DNA of 64,000 nucleotides from Eledone cirrhosa (lineage: Eukaryota): the NCBI GenBank assembly GCA_964016885.1, contig OZ024743.1, forward strand, positions 118,296,001 to 118,360,000, read 5' to 3'. The position numbers and the translations under genes were made by a program. Of the stretch, positions 4,216 through 35,685 are shown in pieces (the first letter of the stretch is position 1; each line of letters starts with the position of its first letter). The notes below the pieces were generated by a model. That model saw only the letters and a list, made by a program, of their open reading frames with translations, made no database searches and was not told where the DNA came from.

Positions 4216-6272
4216 ATATGAGATAATAATGATGTAAATACAAATAAAAATAAAAATAAGGATGTTAATACAAATGTTTTTAGGTTATTCCTACATAATT
4301 ATGAAGTTTGTGATAATTTGATATCGTAATAGATGCTAAATGTATAAAAAGGAATAAGAAGTAGAAAATGGAGTTAAGTTGGTCTAAAGTTCAGGAACAT
4401 CGTTGCTGATTTATGCCGGCAAATTCGGCAATTCGGCTGTTAAGAAGGGTTTTACTAAAATTAAGAATTTGGAATAGCTCCATATTACAGAGCCTACAAT
4501 GGGACATACCAGTTTGATAGGCCTTAGCAGGTGACAGTATTTTCCAGCTGATCTCGTCTTTAATGCTTGCATTCTTGAGTTGCCATATTTTATTGGCAAG
4601 AGTTGTTGTATTTACTTGATTCTTATTAATCATAGAATGTCTGTGCACGTACCACCGTTTTTTAAAACACCAGCTGTGGAACCAATGTAATACCATGCCA
4701 AGCTACCTGAGTTGATAGTACACAAGTATATTACGTCTTTCTCAAGGCATCTGTTTAGTAGAGGGCAATTGTCGGGTAAGTGGCAATTGCATAGAAATGC
4801 TTTCCTATGCGCCGGTTCTACTATATGATTTTGAAGATTGTTATGTATGGGCTACAAATTAGGTTTGTTGGTGTATTGTGGTGGTGTTCTTTGGCGTGTA
4901 TTTGGTTGCGATAATGTAATATGTGTGTGTTTTGTATTTGGTGATATGGAACTTACATGGGGGCTACTTTGGTTATGAATTCTTATGTAGTTAATTTTGT
5001 GAATGTGCGATTCTATGTTGTTAGCAGTGGAGTATGATAGTTTGATAGTTTGTCTATTAAAGATTTTATGATATTTATGTATTTTAGGGAAGTGTTTGTC
5101 AACTAATTTAAAGAAAGTGAAAGGAAACATAGTTTTAATAGAGGAGTTAAACATTGGATTAAACCATAAGCAGTTTCTATTTCTGTATCTTCTATGTCCG
5201 CTAGTGGTATTAGTATTAGCATTTTGTTTATTTAAATTAGGTATATGCTGCCTATTTATGCGTTTAGACCTAGGTTTGTTGATTCTATGGTTGTGGGAAG
5301 TATCGTTAACATTAAGTGTGTTGTTATTTTTTGTATCAGGTATGTATTTGAATCGTTCTTTATGGCCTGCCTTAAGTAAAGCTAAGTTGTAGTAGCTAGC
5401 GTGTTCATTAAACATGTCATGGTTAGAGGATAGGCACGAGATTCTAAGGGATATACTATACGCTATGGAGTTAATTATCGATCTAGGATGGTTCGAGTTA
5501 TAGTCAATGTAAGCTAAATTTTCATTATTTTTATGGAAGGGTCCTATTAGTCCTGAGTTAAACGATACGTCCAAGAAGTTGACTCTTTTTAGAGTTGGGT
5601 TCAAAAGTAATGCTAAGGCCTAAGTTATTAAAGAATTTTCTAATCTTCTTCCTTAATCTTTCTAAGTTTTGGGTATTTACGTTTCTAGCTAAAAGTAGAG
5701 TATCATCTCTATAGATTCCATCTTTTAAGTTACCAAATTCCCTATGTAAGAAATATGGTATAGTTTGTGATCTGGGCTGAGTCGTTCGATCCCATAGTAA
5801 TATCGAAGTTATTCAGTCTATTTTTTCGCTCCCAGTAACTGTTGTCGAATTTAATGATAGTTCGTCTAGCGGCTAGTATTATTTTAATTTCATCTGCTGA
5901 AAGACCCGAATGATTTTGGGCAAAGGATAATGCCTTATTAAGGGTGACTGGGGAGATAAAAGAGTAGTAGTCATTTATGTCAAATTATATAAAGTCGGAC
6001 GATTATTTATTGTCTAATGAGTTGAACCAGTCTATTGCTTGACTTGTGTTACTCCAGATCTTGATAGTTAGTTGTTTCTTAATTTGTGGTAATATTCTAT
6101 CTAGCATAAACTTTTTAATTCTACCTATATCTGATTTTGAAGGACATATAAATCTAATAGTAGGGTTGGTTTCGAAGTTAAATTTATGATCTTTCAGATT
6201 AAAAGTGGGTTCACAAGGTGTAAGAGGCTCGGTTCTAACGGATAATCAAAGTTTTTTTACTATGTTAAGACC

Positions 6273-6336
<64 letters not shown>

Positions 6337-6377
6337 AAATGAAAATCCGAAGGCAAGGTAAAATTCCAATCAATTAA

Positions 6378-6451
6378 TCACGACACATGTTTCAATAAGA
6401 GATTGATCGATTGTGAAGCCATGATCGATTATCACTGATCTCATCAGGTGA
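6378..6451 (-). ncRNA. Minimal type I hammerhead ribozyme (left arm)
   Basis: UCAC-CUGAUGA-(stem II/loop)-GAAAC-AUGU-GUC-GUGA; stem I UCAC/GUGA; palindromic ACAUGU in stem III as in PLE HHRs; stem II pairing is weak. Confidence 0.7.
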
Positions 6452-6965
6452 AAATGAATTGTCTTCAAATTCTTGATATGAGGGAGAAAAAATAACGATG
6501 TTCTCTCGCAGAATTCATTCCCCATATGCAGACACATCAGTCAGAGACACGGCGACTGCTATTAACTTCAGTTGAGGTCATACAAGTTGTAAGATTTCTG
6601 TTGCTGCAAAAGACGCTGGACATCAATCAAATCTGTAGGGATATAGTCGGTCACAGTTAATGTGAGTGGGTACACACCCACATACACCGGCTCGAGGTCA
6701 AAGGAAAATATATACATATATATACACACCTCAACACAGTATCAAACCTGTAGAATTATAGAAGGTCACAGTTAGTCTGGGTGGGTACACACACACTCTC
6801 ACACACACTCTCAGACAAAAAACAAATATAAGAAAACAAATATAAGAATGTACCAACACAGCATTCACCGAAAGTTAGTTCACAAAACAACAGATGGTAC
6901 ATTGGTCAAATCTCAATTGGACGATGTAAATTGGAAATATTGGGTTAACGAACGCCCCATACACA

Positions 6966-7003
<38 letters not shown>

Positions 7004-9299
7004 TACACATACACACACACACACACATACACACACACACACACACATACTCAAGCAAGTAAGTTCAGTTCAGTGTTCTGCTATACGTGTATAGATTGAA
7101 TTGTAACAACCATATCTTCAAGTGTATGTTATGGTATATACACATCCGAATCGTCCAAAAAAGGGTATGCCTGGGTATATACACATCTATGTGAAGAGCA
7201 AGCAATCAGCTTATATCGAACTCAGTATGTACCCCTGTCCCTTTGAGAATCCGAGTCACCAAATCCCTGCGTGCAAGCAACCGCAATGTAGGCAAGCAAG
7301 GGGCTCCGTGTAGGGTTGGGTATTGGGTAAATGCGTCAGTAAGTGCGATTTCCCGTCATATGTGACAATGAGCTTTTAAGATAGTTGTTTGAGTGGTGGA
7401 GGTGTGTCATCCAACACAGAAGGTGAAGCAAAAAACACGGGATAGTAAAATCCAGAGGATGTGTGTAGGCCCATTAATGGTGTTTAAGTTATATTGTTCA
7501 ATCCGTAATAGTGGGTTCTCCATGGTTAGATGATAACGAATCAAAACCTAGTGTAGTGTTCAGTCGTAATTGTGGGAGCTCAATGTCTAAAGCAAACGGG
7601 TACTGTGTGTAGAATTATGTATAGAGAGCGTAATCGGTCCTAACTAAGTGTGTAATACGACTAGCTATATCCCAACCGAGAGAACTCAATGGTTAGGATA
7701 TCTTAAAGTAAAGGTAGGTGCGCATAATCATTCATGCCTGAGTGTGCAATCAATTACTAACTAGGTATTCTATGTGTGTAATATATCTAACTATTTACTA
7801 GCTAGGTATTCTAAAAAAGTGCACTCAGCTGTGAGAACTCCGTGGAAACAGGCCGAGTATCGTTTGGAAGTGCGCAAACAATCTTAGCCGTCTAACTACC
7901 TGAGTGTGTGACTGCCTGTTTATTGAGAGAACTCTATGGCTAAAGTAGAGAGGGAGGAGTTACTAGTAGGTTACCTTCCAAAAATCCTGCGGAAGGTTTT
8001 CGAGGTTCTATGTTGGCAGTTGCTGAAAAAATCTCCTAGCCTGGAAAACCTTAATTGAATTCAACGGTGACCTGTGGACCAGGAAGGATTGGCCAGGCAA
8101 TTTCGACATCACCATGGGATTCACGGACTCGGCCCAGGTGACGGATCTGGTGGGCCTTTACCTCTTTTAATGTCTCGGAGTGAAAATGCCCCACTTGGGA
8201 GGCGACGTTTTGTTTACTGTGTCATTCCATAATAATAGTATGGTAGAGAGGATGAGGAAAAAACTTAGCAAATTCTTCAAGAACATAGACCTAAGTATAG
8301 TATTTCAAGAGAACTTTAAGATAGTTAATTTTCTAGATGTTACACTTAACCTCAATTCGAGACTCTTCCAACCCTACCACAAACCCAACGAGAATTTAAA
8401 CTATGTCAACGCAAAATCGAACTACCCTAGTAGAATTTCAGGACTATCTTCCAATGAAGATACCTTTAATAAGATCTCGAATTACTATAATAGCGCCCTG
8501 GAACGTGCGGGGCATAGCGAGGGAATCTCATTCAAACGTGCATTAAATAGTAGAAGCAACATTGCCTGCGATAGCTTAGGCCTAAATAGTGACAATCTAG
8601 TTAACAGCAGGCGTGATACGAGGGAGGATTCATATAGTCTTCATGTTGTACTGCCGCCTAGTCCCAATGCTGTTGGTACCAATAGAAACAACCACCCATG
8701 TACTAACACGGGGTCTGAGAAACGTAACGCCAGCGGAACTCTAATGGTAACCCTAATTGTGGAACCGATAAAACTACCGTTGAACGCAGTATGGAACGGG
8801 GGTCGAGTAAGGGGTATAGGGACAGGTGTAACAGGCGCATAGTGGATATAATCCCGGCTACGTGGGTAATCCCAATGGCCGCACGGGGTTACACCGACAT
8901 GGAGACTTCACCTTGCTTCACCTTGCTTCACCTTCTGTGTTGGATAACACACCTCAACCACTCAAACAACTATCTTAAATGCTCATTGGCCCATATGACG
9001 GGAAATCGCACTTACTGACGCATTTACCCAATACCCAACCTTACACGGAGCCCCTTGCTGGCCTACATTGCGGTTGCTTGCACGTACGGATTTGGTGACT
9101 CGGATTCTCAAGGGGACAGCGGTACATACTGAGTTCGATATGAGCTGATTGCTTGCTCTTCACATGGATGTGTATATACCCAGACATACCCTTTTTTGGA
9201 CGTTTCGGATGTGTATATACCATAACATACACTTGAAGATATGAATGTTACAATTCAATCTATACACGTATAGCAGAACACTGAACTGAACTTACTTGC

Positions 9300-9352
<53 letters not shown>

Positions 9353-9866
9353 GGGCGTTGGTTAACCCAATATTTCCAATTTACATCGTCAAATTGAGAT
9401 TTGACCAATGTACCATCTGTTGTTTTGTGAACTAACTTTCGGTGAATGCTGTGTTGGTACATTCTTATATTTGTTTTCTTATATCTGTTTTTTTGTCTGA
9501 CATCGCTTCGGTGTGTGTGTACCCACCCAGACTAACTGTGACCTTCTATAATTCTACAGGTTTGATACTGTGTTGAGGTGTGTATATATATGTATATATT
9601 TTCCTTTGACCTCGAGCTGGTGTATATGGGTGTAGAGTGTGTGTGTACCCACTCACATTAACTGTGACGACTATATCCCTACAGATTTGATTAATGTCCA
9701 GCGTCTTTTGCAGCAATAGAAATCTGACAACTTTTATGACCTCAACTGAAGTTAATAGCAGTCGCCATGTCTCTGACTGGTGTGTCTGCATATGAGGGAA
9801 TGAATTCTGTGAGAGAACATCGTTATTTTTTCTCCCTCATATCAAGAATTTGAAGACAATTCATTT

Positions 9867-9940
9867 TCACCTGATGAGATCAGTGATAATCGATCATGGC
9901 TTCACAATCGATCTATCTCTTATTAAAACATGTGTTGTGA
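9867..9940 (+). ncRNA. Mutated HHR copy (right arm)
   Basis: Same motif with AAAAC in place of GAAAC and a GUU triplet; probably inactive. Confidence 0.55.
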
Positions 9941-10156
9941 TTAAATGATTGGAATTTTAACTTGCCTTCAGATCTTCATTTTGATACTTACACTCCGTTT
10001 TACATCACCTATTTATTCCCTTGAATGAAATTGGGGATATACAAAAGCGTGGAGAACTTAATATTGCTAACATAAATTTATTGGACCATTTTACACTAAC
10101 AATAATGCACCTTACTATATAAGAACTATATCTATATATATATTTATTATATATAT

Positions 10157-22112: not shown

Positions 22113-23450
22113 CAATGGCGTAGCTAGGGTGTGGCAAGCAGGGCACATGCCACGGGCGCCATATTTATGGGGGGCGCAATTTCGACCCAGATCGATTTCC
22201 ATCCATGTCGTTTTTATCATTTTTTAAAATATAAGCCAAAAATGAAGCATGTGATTTCTTGATAGCCGACTTCCACGCCATGTCTAGTGCACTAGACAGA
22301 ACAGATGTCTGATTTGACTTCACAAAAACGCCCCCCCCCCTCTACACTGACAGCAGGGTGGGTTGCAATTATGCGGGCGCTATTTTTAGCTATACATTGC
22401 AAAACAAGGATACCTCACTTGACCCCCCCACACACACACACACACATACACACTGACTGAAGGGACGTAGTTTTGGACGTGCAACTGGTGGACACGCAGG
22501 CGCTATTTTTAGCAATGCATTGCAATGTCCAATGCAAGATAATTATAATTATGAAACTGGTTAACAAAACAGAGTAGTTTGTCTTTTACAACTGGTACAT
22601 AAGATGTATAGAAAAGGTATCATAATCCAAATGGCCAGATAGGATCTGATAGCTTCTATTAGGAATTCAATTTGACTCCAGTTTAGATGGTTCAATGTTT
22701 TCTTCTATAATACAGTTCGTCAGAATTTACTAAATCCTATCCAAAAAGCAAGATACTATGGTCTGCTGATTGATTCGACCCCTGACCAGGCGCACCGAGA
22801 ACAACTGTCAAAAGTTGTGCGATATGTCGATGTTGATTTCAATATGAAGACGGTCGTTGTGGGGGAATCTTTTCTTGGATTCATTCAAGTAATCAAAAAA
22901 GATGTCGCAAGCCTTGTTGAAACAATCGTGAAAGAGCTAGAAAAAGATGACCTACCACTGCAGAACTGTCGATCGCAGTGCTACCACAATGCTGCCATAA
23001 TGGCTGGGCACTGCAGTGGGGTTCAGCAGAGAATGAGAGAGAAGAAGAATTTGATTCACTTCGTTAATTGCGATAACCATTCACTTAATCTAGCTGGTCT
23101 TCATGCAGGCAAAAACGATTCGGCTATGATGAACTTTTTCAGTTGCATTGACTCGTTATACAACTTTGTTTCTCGTTCAACACGACGATGGGAAGCCCTT
23201 AAAGAAGTTGTTCCACTGGTTGTTAAATATCCTTCCGACACGCGGTGGAGTGCTAGATGTACCGCAGTCAGACCGGTGGCGAATTATTTGACGCTGATTG
23301 TTCAAGTTCTCGAAAAAATGAGTGATGATGAAACAGGGACATGCGAGAGTAGAAGTGATGTCAGTAATCTCTATAATCGGATACTGAGTTATGAATTCCT
23401 GAACTTGATTGGATTCTGGAACACGATTCTCTCACGAATTAGATTCAGTA
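22113..23450 (+). mobile_element. hAT-superfamily (Tip100/ZMYM-like) transposon relic
   Basis: Terminus CAATGGCGTAGCTAGGG; YYGLLIDSTPDQAHREQLSKVVRYV upstream of ORF 22817-23479, which has CRSQCYHNAAIMAG, VNCDNHSLNL and DTRWSAR (hAT DDE core motifs); truncated. Confidence 0.85.
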
Positions 23451-23511
23451 GTGGCGATAACCAAAGTATTGTATGGTGAGCAATAAAGTTTACATGTAAA
23501 CATTAAAAAAC

Positions 23512-27514: not shown

Positions 27515-29420
27515 ATTTATTAAAATAACAGATTAAAGTTTAAGCAAAGAATCGCTACTTTCACCCTTAACGGGATCTTCTAAAACTAAAAAAATCAATC
27601 TGTAAACGCAGAAGTAAATATTTCAAAAAACGTTTGAACCGGAGGAAGTCTGGAAGACGATACTTTGGTTCGTGGACACGTTCCCTGGCAAAGAACGGGA
27701 AAAAACGAATATAATACGTCATTATTTGGAGCGTTGAAAAACAATTACACGCAAAGACAAAACCACGTTTATGGTATAAAAGAAGTCGTAGACTAATGTT
27801 CTCTTAGGTGGTTCATGGAGACGTTCTCTGGCAATGAACGGAAAAAACGAAGATAATACGTCATTATGTGGAGCGGGAAGAACAATTGCACACAAAGACA
27901 AAAGCACGTAAATGGTATAACTGAAGTCGTAGACTAAAATTCTAACTAGGAAACCGAATGATTCTCGGCTTCAAAGTTAAGAAAAAAGTAAATAAAATAC
28001 AGAGGTAATTGAAATTAAATAAATACATACACGCATCAATATATGTACATGCACAAGCATACGCGAAAACGTTCGCTATAGGTATACAAATACAAGCACG
28101 TACACAAAATAAAAACACGCACGCACATATAGAACCCACGCAACGCCTGTACCCGCACACATACGAACGTATACACCAAATACACATAAAAATATATATT
28201 AAAAATACATATATATATATTGGTGCGTTTGCGTGTATACATATAATTAAATAAACGTATATAAATAAATAAATACGTATATAACGCGCGCACACACATA
28301 CCTACATGTAAATACACATATGTTCGGAGACATACGTCAACCAAAACACAAAGTACACATATACACACACCCTACATACGTACAAACCCGCATACTCACA
28401 CAGACGCAAAACTCGCATATAAACATAACCAAATGCATATGTACCAAAATATATAATATATACGCCATAACATATACAATCAAATATACGTACGAGAAAG
28501 TATACGTACCTTCACAAAACATACAGGTAATATATACTTACCTATACAAATAAGTAATGGTATAAACATAACATATACTTATGTACCACATCAAGACTTA
28601 AATTATCCGCGTATAGTTCGTACTATCCGTTAGAGTATAATGTGGGGCTGTAATACAGGAAAGTTTTGTGCAATTTATGTTTACAAGCCGAAATAGCCTC
28701 AGATTTTTTGTTTAAGATGTGGTATTTGGCGTAGAGTATTTCCAGGGCCTCAGCGGCGCAGAGGTCACATGGTCTTTTGTTTCCGTGTAACTGATATTGG
28801 GTGTGGTTGTCTTTTAGACTCCAGATATAAGTTGAAAGTGACGTCATATTCCTTCTTAAAAAGTTAAGAAAAGAATGGGTTGACTTCCCCCTATCCGGGA
28901 AATGCCTCTCTAGTAACATTGTCTACAAATGTAAGGTTGAAACACCCACGTCCCGTAGGGCCTACATAGGGTTAACCGCCAATAGATTCAAGCAGCGTCT
29001 TTACATGCATACCCATTCTTTTCTTTTAAAGAAGTCGTAGACTAATATTCTATTAGTCTACGACTTCTTTTATACCATAAACGTGCTTTTGTCTTTGCGT
29101 GTAATTGTTTTTCACCGCTCCAAATAATGACGTATTATCTTTGTTTGTTCCCGTTCTTTGCCAGGGAACGTTTCCACGAACCAAAGTATCGTCTTCCTGT
29201 CTTCCTCCAGTTGCAACGTTTTTTGAAATATTTACTTCTGCGTTCACAGATTGACTTTTTTTAGTTTCAGAAGATCCCGTTAAGGGTGAAAGCAGCGATT
29301 CTTTGCTTAAACTTTAATCTGTTATTTTAATAAATATTTGCTCTACGGTTCTTATATATTTGATATATATTTATCCTTATTGAGCCCTCTTTGGATTTTA
29401 GTCTTCAAATTTATTATTAT

Positions 29421-29425
<5 letters not shown>
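27515..29425. mobile_element. Family B PLE 3' end with GIY-YIG remnant, inversions and inverted terminal arms
   Basis: 27515-27777 is inverted at 29052-29338. Minus strand 28623-28870 gives TSLSTYIWSLKD..CDLCAAEALEIL..LNKKSEAISACKH; plus strand 28882-29022 gives FPLSGKCLSSNIVYKCKV..AYIGLTANRFKQRLYMHTHSF. Confidence 0.85.
29263..29313 (+). ncRNA. HHR-like fold with variant core CAGAAGA (mirror copy 27537-27587, minus, UAGAAGA)
   Basis: AGUUU-CAGAAGA-U CCC GUUAA GGG U-GAAA GCAG..UUGC-UU-AAACU; all three stems pair. Confidence 0.6.
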
Positions 29426-31349: not shown

Positions 31350-31995
31350 ATATCTAGGGCGGGTAAAATTCCCGAGATACATGGACGAGTTCTCTCCAGT
31401 GGTCTCTGTCCATCATTATCGCTGCCATGTCCTGCGTCTCCAACAGACCAGTGTCTGTCCTTAGGGCATCAACATACGTTAACCTTGGTCTTCCTCTTCC
31501 AGTGTGTCCATGAAGGGGCTCCCACAGGAGCACTGAGTGCAATGTCAACTCTGGATGTCGGTGAGCATGTCCAGCTAACCTCAGTCTCCTCTGTGTCACT
31601 TTTGAGCTGACTTTTGGGAGGCTCCCATACAGCTCTGAGTTGTTCATCCTCGGTGTATACTGATTAATGTTCAGAGCCATCCTCAGCATTCTCGTGTAGC
31701 ACCCATCCACCATCATAGTGATTTTCTTGGTCAGTGTCCAAGTCTCAGACCCGTACAGCAGCACAGACTCCACTACAGCAATGAAGAGGCGGATTTTCAG
31801 GTTTTTACGAAGGTTCGACTTCCACACCGTTCTCAAGCTGTGGCACGCCGCCCAGGCTTTGCTCTTCCTCTCAACCACATCATCCTCCGTATTCCCAATC
31901 TTTGCTCCCAGATACAGGAAGCCCTCAACCAATTCTAGCGGCTTCCCGCCTACATAAATAATCCCCTCTGGCTTCTCAACATTCTCTACTAGATA
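31350..31995 (-). mobile_element. RTE/RTE-X-type LINE 3' fragment, open reading frame
   Basis: ORF 31354-31932: FLYLG, LFIAVVESVLLYGSETWTLT, RRLRLAGH, GRGRPRLTYVD. Confidence 0.9.
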
Positions 31996-32004
31996 TTTTG
32001 TTTA

Positions 32005-33418: not shown

Positions 33419-33839
<421 letters not shown>

Positions 33840-34199
33840 ACGTGTGTGTATGATTGTGTATGTGTGTGTGTATACATTATATATATTATATATTACATGA
33901 TATATGCATATGTGCGTATAAATATATGAGAACTGCCTCTTATTTACTGAAGAGGGCTATCTCTTCAATGTTGTGCTGAACGGCGATGAGACCGCAAATG
34001 AGTTCGCACACCTGCCTCGCTCTTGCATAACTTTTACAGATATGACATACATAAAGCTCCCGATAATCCTAAACGTAACCTGCCCTTTATGCAATGTCAT
34101 GATCTGCTTGAATCCAGCAGCACACCTACAAGCATTGTTGCCAAACTGACACGAATACCTGCAGGCTTTTCAGGGAGGACACCAACATAATCGGCCCCA

Positions 34200-34606
34200 G
34201 ACTTCTGATTGCTGTGAGCTCTTAAATGATTAGGAAGATGAGCACGAACATAAGCAACCTTCCCACAGATGTTACAGACATGGTCTGACCGGATCTCCTG
34301 CGGGACTCAATCTACGTTACCTTTTCTGAGTGCTCTTTTAAACAATCAATCCTGTTGACCTCACAGCGATAACAGCCATCATAATCCAGTCTTCTTCAAC
34401 CAGAACGTCTCTTCCTCGTCTTCCCAATCCTCAACACTAATACCAAAAGTCTTCAGGTTGCCTTTAACAACATCCCTAAAAGGTTTCGTGGGTTTGTCCC
34501 TGGGGCATTTACCACGAGTTAACACTCCATACCAAATTCGTTTAGAAAACCTTTCATTTCCCACCCGCCTTAAATGCCCTGCCTAACGCAGTTGGTTTTG
34601 AATGAT
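34200..34606 (-). mobile_element. RTE (BovB-like) LINE 3' fragment
   Basis: IIQNQLR*AGHLRRVGNERFSKRIWYGVLTRGKCPRDKP..FRDVVKGNLKTFGI, followed by a CNICGK zinc-finger-like remnant. Confidence 0.8.
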
Positions 34607-34620
34607 TAATTTTTAAATTT

Positions 34621-35513
34621 AATAGAAAATGCTGACAAATTGTTCACAGTTGAAAAATGGTTTAATTAGCCTGGGTTGGTAGTAGTGAACATAGTTAGGA
34701 TAGTATCGCAAAGGTTTTGGAGTTTGTCGCCGATTTCGGAGGGTTTGTATCCGGTGGCGGTTTCTTTATTTGTGGAGTCAAGTTTGTCGATACAGAAAAT
34801 GCCAACAAAAACGGATACAACCCTCATCAACTCAAATGAAGAGATCCTACAGGAACTCAAGAAAATCAACACCAACCTATGTTAAAGTTGGCAGAAGAAC
34901 CCTGTTTTGCAGAGCTCATCACCAGAGAATAGTTCCAAGCATTAGCATTGCTTATTAATGATAGCTGTTATCAAGTGCGTCTCCGGTTCGCTATGAAATT
35001 GAACAAAGGACTGCTAAGTCTTCGCTTACCTATCTTCTCTTTGGCAGCTAATGACCCTGTCAAGGAACGACGAGCTCAGGTGAAGCAGTTCCTTTATGCA
35101 AATATTAGCAAGAGGAGAGAATATCTCAAACAGCATGTATCACCAGGCTCTAAAATCTATTCCTTACTGCCAGATTATATGCTGCCCTATACAATCCACT
35201 TGCTGGCTCACGACCCTGACCTCAAATCACATGATCATATGCAGGCTTTGATGTCTTTGGTTTGTGATGGATCCATTGATGAGTCGGAGTGAAGATTACA
35301 ATTATGCGTTCTTTAGACGAATGATTGAAGATATCTTTGCTGGTCGACAAACTTGACTCCACAAATAAGGAAACCGCCACCGGATACAAACCCTCCGAAA
35401 TCGGCGACAAAATCCAAAACCTTTGCGATACTATCCTAACTATGTTCACTACTACCAACCCAGGCTAATTAAACCATTTTTCAACTGTGAACAATTTGTC
35501 AGCATTTTCTATT
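34621..35513. repeat. 170-bp inverted repeat pair (34621-34790 / 35344-35513)
   Basis: Reverse-complement match with about 2 mismatches by eye. Confidence 0.92.
34879..35335 (+). pseudogene. PDS5: Intronless, disabled fragment of sister-chromatid cohesion protein PDS5
   Basis: [85 protein letters not shown]..(frameshift)CLWFVMDPLMSRSEDYNYAFFRRMIEDI matches vertebrate PDS5B as recalled ([44 protein letters not shown]); TAG at 34930, a short in-frame deletion, one frameshift. Confidence 0.92.
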
Positions 35514-35559
35514 CCGTTTACCAATATATAATAACTTGTGTGTTACACCTTTATTCTTT

Positions 35560-35613
<54 letters not shown>

Positions 35614-35620
35614 ATATATA

Positions 35621-35685
35621 TAGTAATCATAATAAATGTGAAGACTAACATCCAAAGAGGGCTCGATAAGGATAAATATATATAT
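35621..35685 (-). repeat. Family B terminal fragment
   Basis: TAGTAATCATAATAAATGTGAAGACTAACATCCAAAGAGGGGCTCGATAAGG matches 32417 and 29370-29425. Confidence 0.75.

What the first reader, a model, noticed from the sequence alone, without database searches (positions are those of the whole stretch)
34621..35563. Host PDS5 fragment captured inside a young fold-back element
Seen: ~150 contiguous PDS5 codons with a stop, a deletion and a frameshift, no intron, between 170-bp inverted arms ~99% identical. The right arm runs ~50 bp further and ends in (TA)n. That asymmetric layout (inverted 5' copy of a 3' segment, longer right side ending in TA repeats) matches the PLE fold-backs at 6332-10147 and 27515-29425. 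An 88-nt non-PDS5 piece (MPTKTDTTLINSNEEILQELKKINTN) precedes the insert. Inference: template switching by a PLE-type RT onto spliced PDS5 mRNA, or a Pack-TIR-like capture. The arms themselves show no HHR or PLE protein motif, so the PLE link rests on architecture only.
Basis: partly seen in the sequence, partly recalled or inferred. Interest (0 to 1): 0.85.

Follow-up and report, generated by a model that had tools for sequence, protein, structure and literature searches.

The report
Spliced PDS5 captured by Penelope retrotransposon
A 457-base piece of the spliced message of the chromosome-cohesion gene PDS5 sits inside a young, broken copy of a Penelope-like jumping gene, likely because that element's reverse transcriptase hopped onto the host message and back, which would make these elements, known for keeping introns, a source of intron-free gene copies too.

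Summary
The insert (34878-35334) is four consecutive exons of the PDS5 gene 27.8 Mb away, with three introns removed, 3 substitutions and deletions of 15 and 14 nt. Everything around it, including the '88-nt piece', belongs to a young Penelope-like element (RT plus C-terminal GIY-YIG; 3,089 exact 3' ends in (TA)n). The mRNA piece lies in sense inside the element's first ORF, joined at both ends through the same TAT with no element base lost (chance 0.3%). In 92 complete fold-backs of the family, 2 more hold host cargo: a pre-tRNA ending at its terminator and an exon piece. Best reading (0.65): out-and-back template switching by the PLE RT. Main rival (0.25): cDNA inserted into a staggered cut in already-made PLE DNA. 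The copy is dead. Published PLE gene capture that I saw keeps introns; 9 literature searches showed no spliced case. The scan has noted similar RNA-derived cargo elsewhere in this genome. Raw reads could not be checked.

The parts
33777..34614 (-). Left flank: old, decayed LINE-like repeat (about 76-80% to other copies), cut at 34614; then a 6-nt linker 34615-34620. Not part of the insertion
   Evidence: its continuation is not in the window
34621..34790 (-). Inverted arm: PLE ORF1 piece (reference 787-907) joined to pseudo-LTR piece (569-617). Carries the same private junction as the right arm. Outer end is 17 nt short of the family's usual end and has no (TA)n
34789..34880 (+). PLE ORF1 start (reference 686-777; MPTKTDTT...), joined to the inverted arm by a 2-nt GA microhomology
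34878..35334 (+). Spliced PDS5 mRNA fragment: exon parts 34878-34959, 34960-35149, 35150-35250, 35251-35334; TAT shared with the PLE at both ends; stop, 15-nt and 14-nt deletions
35332..35464 (+). PLE ORF1 resumed at the same TAT (reference 775-907), no base lost
35465..35563 (+). PLE 3' end (pseudo-LTR, reference 569/5431 onward) with the tail; joined to ORF1 with no microhomology, a junction found only in the two arms of this locus
35564..35622 (.). (TA)n target microsatellite
   Evidence: same end in 3,089 places

Best explanation
This is a dead, young Penelope-like retrotransposon insertion that carries a spliced PDS5 mRNA fragment, likely picked up when the element's own reverse transcriptase switched template onto the host message and back. 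Inferred order, read from the right: the endonuclease nicked a (TA)n repeat; RT began at the tail-bearing start site and copied about 100 nt; it jumped (no homology) into ORF1 at reference 907; at a TAT it moved onto PDS5 mRNA, copied a 486-nt stretch while skipping 15 and 14 nt; at another TAT it returned to the point it had left and ran to the ORF1 start. The inverted arm was made from the same lineage of template, either by copying the new cDNA or by a second priming on an already deleted RNA, and was joined through a 2-nt microhomology. A deletion then or later removed the arm's last 17 nt and its TA flank. Shown: spliced origin, PLE identity, junction sequences, sense orientation, single copy, broken frames. 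Inferred: which enzyme copied PDS5, the order of jumps, and that it was one event.
For: Three introns absent, two junctions exact. The same TAT is shared with PDS5 at both ends; in 200,000 random draws, 3 nt or more of microhomology at both ends came up in 0.31%. The insert is sense to the PLE ORF and lies within one arm, as needed if RT moved between two sense RNAs; a sense template fits the in vitro work on PAc (PMC11167929). No poly(A); both ends are internal to the coding sequence. Same apparent age: 3 differences in 457 nt of PDS5 against 3 private or near-private differences in 494 nt of PLE. The copy has other jumps: a 4.5-kb skip private to this locus. The family itself takes up host RNA-like sequence: 2 of 92 complete fold-backs. 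One is a tRNA-Met gene with its 3' trailer ending just before the TTTT run, joined by 4-nt microhomology and present in both arms (L101); the other is 287 nt, 100% identical to part of a 746-codon open frame on another contig (L134). No PLE of this family lies beside either source or within the 40 kb fetched around the PDS5 exons, which argues against read-through transduction. Deletions of 10-20 nt occur in family copies too.
Against: The element is perfectly continuous across the insert with TAT duplicated. Tan et al. 2016 (PMC5131818, passages) used the opposite pattern (element sequence replaced) as the mark of template switching and continuity as the mark of later insertion. The inverted arm stops 9 nt before the insert, so it does not prove that the insert was present when the arm was made. 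One case gives orientation at 50% odds by chance. Deletions of 8 nt or more are rare in family copies (8 in 54.5 kb; two in 486 nt has P about 0.002), so the PDS5 part was copied unusually badly or by another polymerase. L134 is a single-exon piece, so its RNA origin is not shown, and it lies between the arms where orientation is ambiguous. No second intron-spanning capture turned up in 153 sampled ends. Reads were not seen.
Confidence: 0.65

Rival explanations
1. PDS5 cDNA was inserted into PLE DNA that already existed (just made or long integrated). A staggered cut at TAT left 3' overhangs; one primed reverse transcription on PDS5 mRNA and the other annealed to the cDNA end. The RT could be the PLE's own acting in trans, a LINE RT, or a repair polymerase.
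For: It explains in one step the duplicated TAT, the microhomology at both ends and the absence of any PLE loss. PAc nicks both strands of AT-rich DNA, including its own sequence (PMC11167929). The PDS5 part has more small deletions than family copies usually do. The inverted arm does not include the insert.
Against: It needs a second rare event in a target of about 500 bp. The PLE and PDS5 parts are equally diverged, although only 3 differences each. L101 shows host RNA taken up before or during arm formation in this family. No poly(A).
Confidence: 0.25
2. The chimera formed in an earlier round in a donor copy (by either route above). That donor, already deleted and carrying PDS5, was transcribed and re-inserted here with both arms primed separately on its RNA.
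For: Both arms share a junction and a minor allele (T, 4 of 32 family loci). In 5 of 34 simple fold-backs the inverted arm reaches further 5' than the direct arm, so arms can be primed separately from RNA. L012 repeats one internal junction twice.
Against: No donor in the assembly: the junction pattern occurs only in the two arms of this locus and the PDS5 piece only here and at the gene (5 of 5 candidates scored).
Confidence: 0.08
3. DNA-level capture by a TIR transposon, a local inverted duplication, or an assembly artefact.
For: Inverted arms frame the cargo. Reads were not examined.
Against: The cargo lacks three introns. The arms are multicopy PLE sequence. The insert differs from the gene by 3 substitutions and 2 deletions, which an assembler would not invent.
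Confidence: 0.02

Closest known systems
Penelope-mediated host gene mobilisation in Adineta vaga (Arkhipova et al. 2013, PMC3846280; passages and whole Discussion seen)
   Same: Host coding sequence framed by PLE terminal repeats, direct and inverted; template jumps were proposed there for inserts inside PLE ORFs.
   Different: That NRPS gene kept all its introns and had an 8-bp target duplication. Here the cargo is spliced, internal, and spliced into ORF1 by microhomology. That paper favoured an antisense template; a sense-collinear mRNA points to a sense template.
LTR-mediated retroposition by double template switch (Tan et al. 2016, PMC5131818; passages)
   Same: Partial, tail-less retrocopy flanked on both sides by retroelement sequence with microsimilarity at both junctions.
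   Different: The carrier is a PLE, not an LTR element. Microhomology is 3 nt (their median 6). No element sequence is replaced, whereas some was replaced in all of their Drosophila cases.
C-terminal-endonuclease PLEs with a CX2-5CxxC linker (Neptune or Nematis; Craig et al. 2021, PMC8557442; passages)
   Same: RT then GIY-YIG, GxKF and DKG motifs, CX4CxxC linker, CCHH residues, (TA)n target, inverted 5'-truncated arm, tail at one end only.
   Different: The family has a separate 455-codon upstream frame with no Pfam match. No hammerhead was found by Rfam. The clade was not placed on a tree.
Poseidon of Anolis carolinensis, two RT start sites (Frangieh et al. 2024, PMC11167929; parts 1-2 of 4 read)
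   Same: Two fixed 3' ends define the tail: here 41 nt apart; 89 of 92 inverted arms end at the tail-less site and 3 at the tail site.
   Different: Here both sites lie just upstream of the ORF1 start codon rather than 111-118 nt into the ORF. No capture of host RNA is described in the parts I read.

Membership tests
Processed (RNA-derived) gene copy | Introns precisely absent | tested here: met
   Three introns absent; junctions 1/2 and 2/3 exact at GT-AG; junction 3/4 joined with 14 nt of exon 3 missing
Processed (RNA-derived) gene copy | Intact multi-exon parent elsewhere | tested here: met
   Collinear PF20168 exons at C4:90.53-90.57 Mb; the four exons join to an open frame
L1-type processed pseudogene | Poly(A) tail and 3' end of the mRNA | tested here: not met
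   Both ends are inside the coding sequence; no A tract
EN+ Penelope-like element (carrier) | RT with GIY-YIG endonuclease | tested here: met
   PF00078 and PF01541 over cut-off in the 784-aa frame of L074; the window copy holds none of this frame
EN+ Penelope-like element (carrier) | Pseudo-LTRs, inverted 5'-truncated arm, tail at one end | tested here: met
   Direct terminal repeat in L075; 92 of 153 sampled ends have a complete inverted arm
EN+ Penelope-like element (carrier) | Hammerhead ribozyme in the pseudo-LTR | tested here: inconclusive
   No hammerhead family in 4 loci at E<=1; minimal PLE hammerheads may escape Rfam (recalled)
Neptune/Nematis clades | C-terminal EN with CX2-5CxxC linker and CCHH motif | tested here: met
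   Read by eye in the L074/L075 translation against the description in PMC8557442
Neptune/Nematis clades | Phylogenetic placement of the RT | not tested
Naiad/Chlamys | N-terminal endonuclease | tested here: not met
   GIY-YIG at residues 691-780, after RT at 265-453
Pack-TIR / Pack-MULE | Transposon TIRs framing DNA-derived (intron-keeping) cargo | tested here: not met
   Arms are PLE ORF1 and pseudo-LTR sequence; cargo is spliced; left end has no matching target duplication
LTR-type double template-switch retrocopy | Microsimilarity at both junctions | tested here: met
   3 nt at each end; 0.31% of random draws
LTR-type double template-switch retrocopy | LTR carrier with part of its ORF replaced | tested here: not met
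   Carrier is a PLE; no base lost

The most novel reading that the evidence does not exclude
Penelope-like elements are a routine, unrecognised source of processed gene fragments and RNA chimeras in this animal: their RT jumps in vivo onto spliced mRNA and pre-tRNA and can return to the exact point it left on a sense template. At 2 of 92 fold-backs, this one family alone would hold about 40 host fragments (range about 5-140), and the orientation of such cargo would settle in vivo that PLEs copy a sense RNA.
Probability: 0.5. Interest if true: 0.72.

Novelty: new variant of a known kind. Interest (0 to 1): 0.58.

Why it matters
PLEs are described as the retroelements that keep introns and can disperse intron-containing genes; an antisense or unspliced template was proposed to explain this (PMC3846280). 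A spliced mRNA piece lying in sense inside a PLE ORF indicates that the PLE machinery, or the break it makes, meets mature mRNA. If the template-switch reading holds, PLEs join L1 and LTR elements as makers of retrocopies, and cargo orientation across a 3,000-copy family becomes a direct genome-only test of template polarity. The locus itself is a dead copy with no sign of function: PDS5 is out of frame with ORF1 and would sit in the loop, not the stem, of the predicted hairpin.

Tried and rejected
Sequencing runs: no runs could be listed, so there is no read, polymorphism or expression evidence. Hammerhead search: nothing but microsatellite-driven matches in 4 loci. A donor or sister copy: none. 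In-frame ORF1-PDS5 fusion: rejected, ORF1 stops two codons into the insert. PDS5 double-stranded RNA from the hairpin: rejected, the insert is in the loop. Alternative splice donor for the frameshift: rejected, the deleted piece does not start with GT. Back-spliced circle for the ORF1/3'-end junction: no GT after or AG before it; a simple forward skip on a full-length RNA explains it. L145's 1.1-kb insert looked like cargo but is another multicopy repeat, so it was not counted. An apparent burst of 9 deletions in L036 was a BLAST artefact: re-alignment shows two. Empty-site reconstruction: the old LINE on the left does not resume in the window, so the target site could not be rebuilt. Folding the RNA around the TAT gave no clear stall structure. 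The 61 of 153 ends without a complete inverted arm were not counted for cargo; those that abut unique DNA were listed but their flanks were not traced. Literature: 9 full-text searches listed no paper on spliced host mRNA inside a PLE; the library lacks most subscription papers and I read no supplements.

Full report
Observation. The arms lie at 34621-34790 and 35344-35513, 170 nt with 2 mismatches. The sequence between them includes a PDS5 fragment (PF20168, E 7.9e-22; human PDS5B). A search of the genome with the insert gave five matches of five candidates: the window and four separate pieces at C4:90,563,515-90,568,293, about 27.8 Mb away on the same contig. These are consecutive exons of 124, 205, 115 and 133 nt with AG acceptors and GT donors that join into an open frame, within a collinear multi-exon PDS5 gene. 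The window copy (34878-35334, 457 nt) matches 486 nt of the joined exons with 3 substitutions (one makes the stop), a 15-nt deletion inside exon 2 and a 14-nt deletion of the end of exon 3. Two junctions are exact. The insert is therefore a copy of spliced mRNA. It has no poly(A) and both ends are internal.

The carrier. The arms, the '88-nt piece' and the right extension all match a dispersed repeat at 96-100%. [quoted passage not shown] By eye the protein has GxKF, DKG, a CX4CxxC linker and CCHH residues, the features that Craig et al. give for Neptune and Nematis (PMC8557442, passages); I built no tree. The exact 3' end followed by (TA)n occurs 3,089 times, with 0 for the reversed control. 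Rfam found no hammerhead in 4 loci.

Anatomy on one reference copy (L075). From the left: inverted arm (617-569 joined to 907-787), ORF1 start (686-777), PDS5, ORF1 resumed (775-907), 3' end (569/5431 to the tail end), (TA)n. The PDS5 piece begins and ends with TAT, both native to PDS5, and the element has a single TAT at that point; no element base is lost. In 200,000 random draws, microhomology of 3 nt or more at both ends arose in 0.31%. The 907-to-569 junction has no microhomology and occurs only in the two arms of this locus. Both arms carry a minor allele seen in 4 of 32 family loci; each has one private or near-private change. The PLE parts differ from the family at 3 of 494 positions and the PDS5 part from its gene at 3 of 457, so they look the same age, on small numbers.

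What the family does. I sampled 153 distinct tail-bearing ends: the first 100 listed on contig C1 and 53 more from two patterns with fixed TA length, after dropping one duplicate from each (analysed in 43, 47, 49, 58, 66). Fifty-three of these and 30 of the C1 set had only 1.5 kb of upstream sequence, the rest 3.5 kb, so long cargo would be missed. Ninety-two have a complete inverted arm; 89 end at one site 41 nt short of the tail end and 3 at the tail end, nearly all against a TA run. This matches the two RT start sites of PAc (PMC11167929, parts 1-2 of 4). The window's left arm stops 17 nt inside that site and abuts an old LINE-like repeat through 6 nt, so its outer end was lost; a few sampled copies are cut likewise. 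In 5 of 34 simple fold-backs the inverted arm is the longer one, so arms can be primed separately. Two of the 92 hold host cargo. L101 has a tRNA-Met(CAT) gene with its 3' trailer, 99% identical to a locus on C3, ending just before the TTTT run, joined by 4 nt of microhomology, sense to the element and present in both arms. L134 has 287 nt identical to part of a 746-codon open frame on C3, between the arms. Neither source, nor the 40 kb fetched around the PDS5 exons, has this PLE beside it. A third candidate, L145, is another repeat. Extrapolated, about 1,860 complete fold-backs at 2.2% (95% interval 0.3-7.6%) would give about 40 captures, range 5-140; the sample is mostly one contig.

Mechanism. 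The best reading (0.65) is one erratic round of PLE reverse transcription on a sense RNA: priming at (TA)n, a long forward skip, an excursion onto PDS5 mRNA at TAT, and a return at TAT. It accounts for the orientation, the microhomologies, the equal age, the other jumps and the family's other captures. Against it: Tan et al. (PMC5131818, passages) took a continuous, interrupted element as the sign of later insertion, and that is the pattern here; the inverted arm stops 9 nt before the insert and so does not date it; two deletions in 486 nt exceed the family rate of 8 in 54.5 kb (P about 0.002). The rival (0.25) is cDNA synthesis primed from a staggered cut at TAT in existing PLE DNA, which gives the same junctions but needs a second event in a small target. 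A lost donor copy (0.08) would explain the shared private junction but none is in the assembly. DNA-level capture or artefact (0.02) is contradicted by the splice junctions; reads were not available to close it.

Function. None is evident. ORF1 stops two codons into the insert, PDS5 has a stop and a frameshift, the piece is single-copy, and it would lie in the loop of the predicted hairpin. Expression was not tested.

Comparison and novelty. PLE mobilisation of host genes is published, but with introns kept, and the same paper proposed an antisense template (PMC3846280, passages and Discussion; restated in PMC8557442). Double template-switch retrocopies are published for LTR elements (PMC5131818). 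The bioRxiv retrozyme paper (10.64898/2026.07.22.740005, passages) has no occurrence of 'template switch' or 'mRNA'. Nine searches listed no report of spliced host mRNA inside a PLE; the library is incomplete and I read no supplements, where such cases could be listed. Earlier notes of this scan describe related, unchecked cases in this genome, which call the animal an octopus relative; none matched this sequence. I rate it a new variant of a known kind, interest 0.58: a clean natural record bearing on how PLEs replicate, but a single dead copy whose mechanism has a serious rival.

Noticed in passing
L101:1640-1920 (G000:C1:22189217-22189500): Perfect fold-back of this PLE family carrying a tRNA-Met(CAT) with its 3' trailer in both arms; the trailer ends just before the source's TTTT run, as a pre-tRNA would.
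   Followed up: yes
L134:2387-2672 (G000:C1:62560369-62560655): 287 nt identical to part of a 746-codon open frame at C3:323489406-323489692, held between the two PLE arms. The gene was not identified.
   Followed up: partly
L012:817-2041: The same internal junction (reference 1462 to 503) occurs twice in tandem, suggesting a circular or already deleted multimeric RNA template.
   Followed up: no
L071, L074, L075 (first frame, e.g. L074:6821-8185 minus): The family has a conserved 455-codon upstream frame with no Pfam match that overlaps the RT-EN frame by 67 nt; canonical PLEs are described as single-ORF.
   Followed up: no
family reference position 428 (e.g. L121, L124, L127): Many fold-backs are near-identical 439-nt units turning at one 10-nt palindrome; a hotspot or a non-autonomous subfamily.
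   Followed up: no
L090, L118, L210 (5' of the direct arm): About 180 nt of other sequence lies between the PLE arm and the outer TA run; possibly an arm copied from a different repeat family's RNA.
   Followed up: no
window 6332-10147 and 27515-29425; also 4852-5619: Other fold-backs and RT-like frames (8171-8842, 4852-5619) that do not match this family by blastn or tblastn.
   Followed up: partly
window 22676-23479 and 31354-32001: A 267-codon frame resembling a hAT-type transposase piece and a 215-codon LINE RT-like frame (labels recalled, not tested).
   Followed up: no
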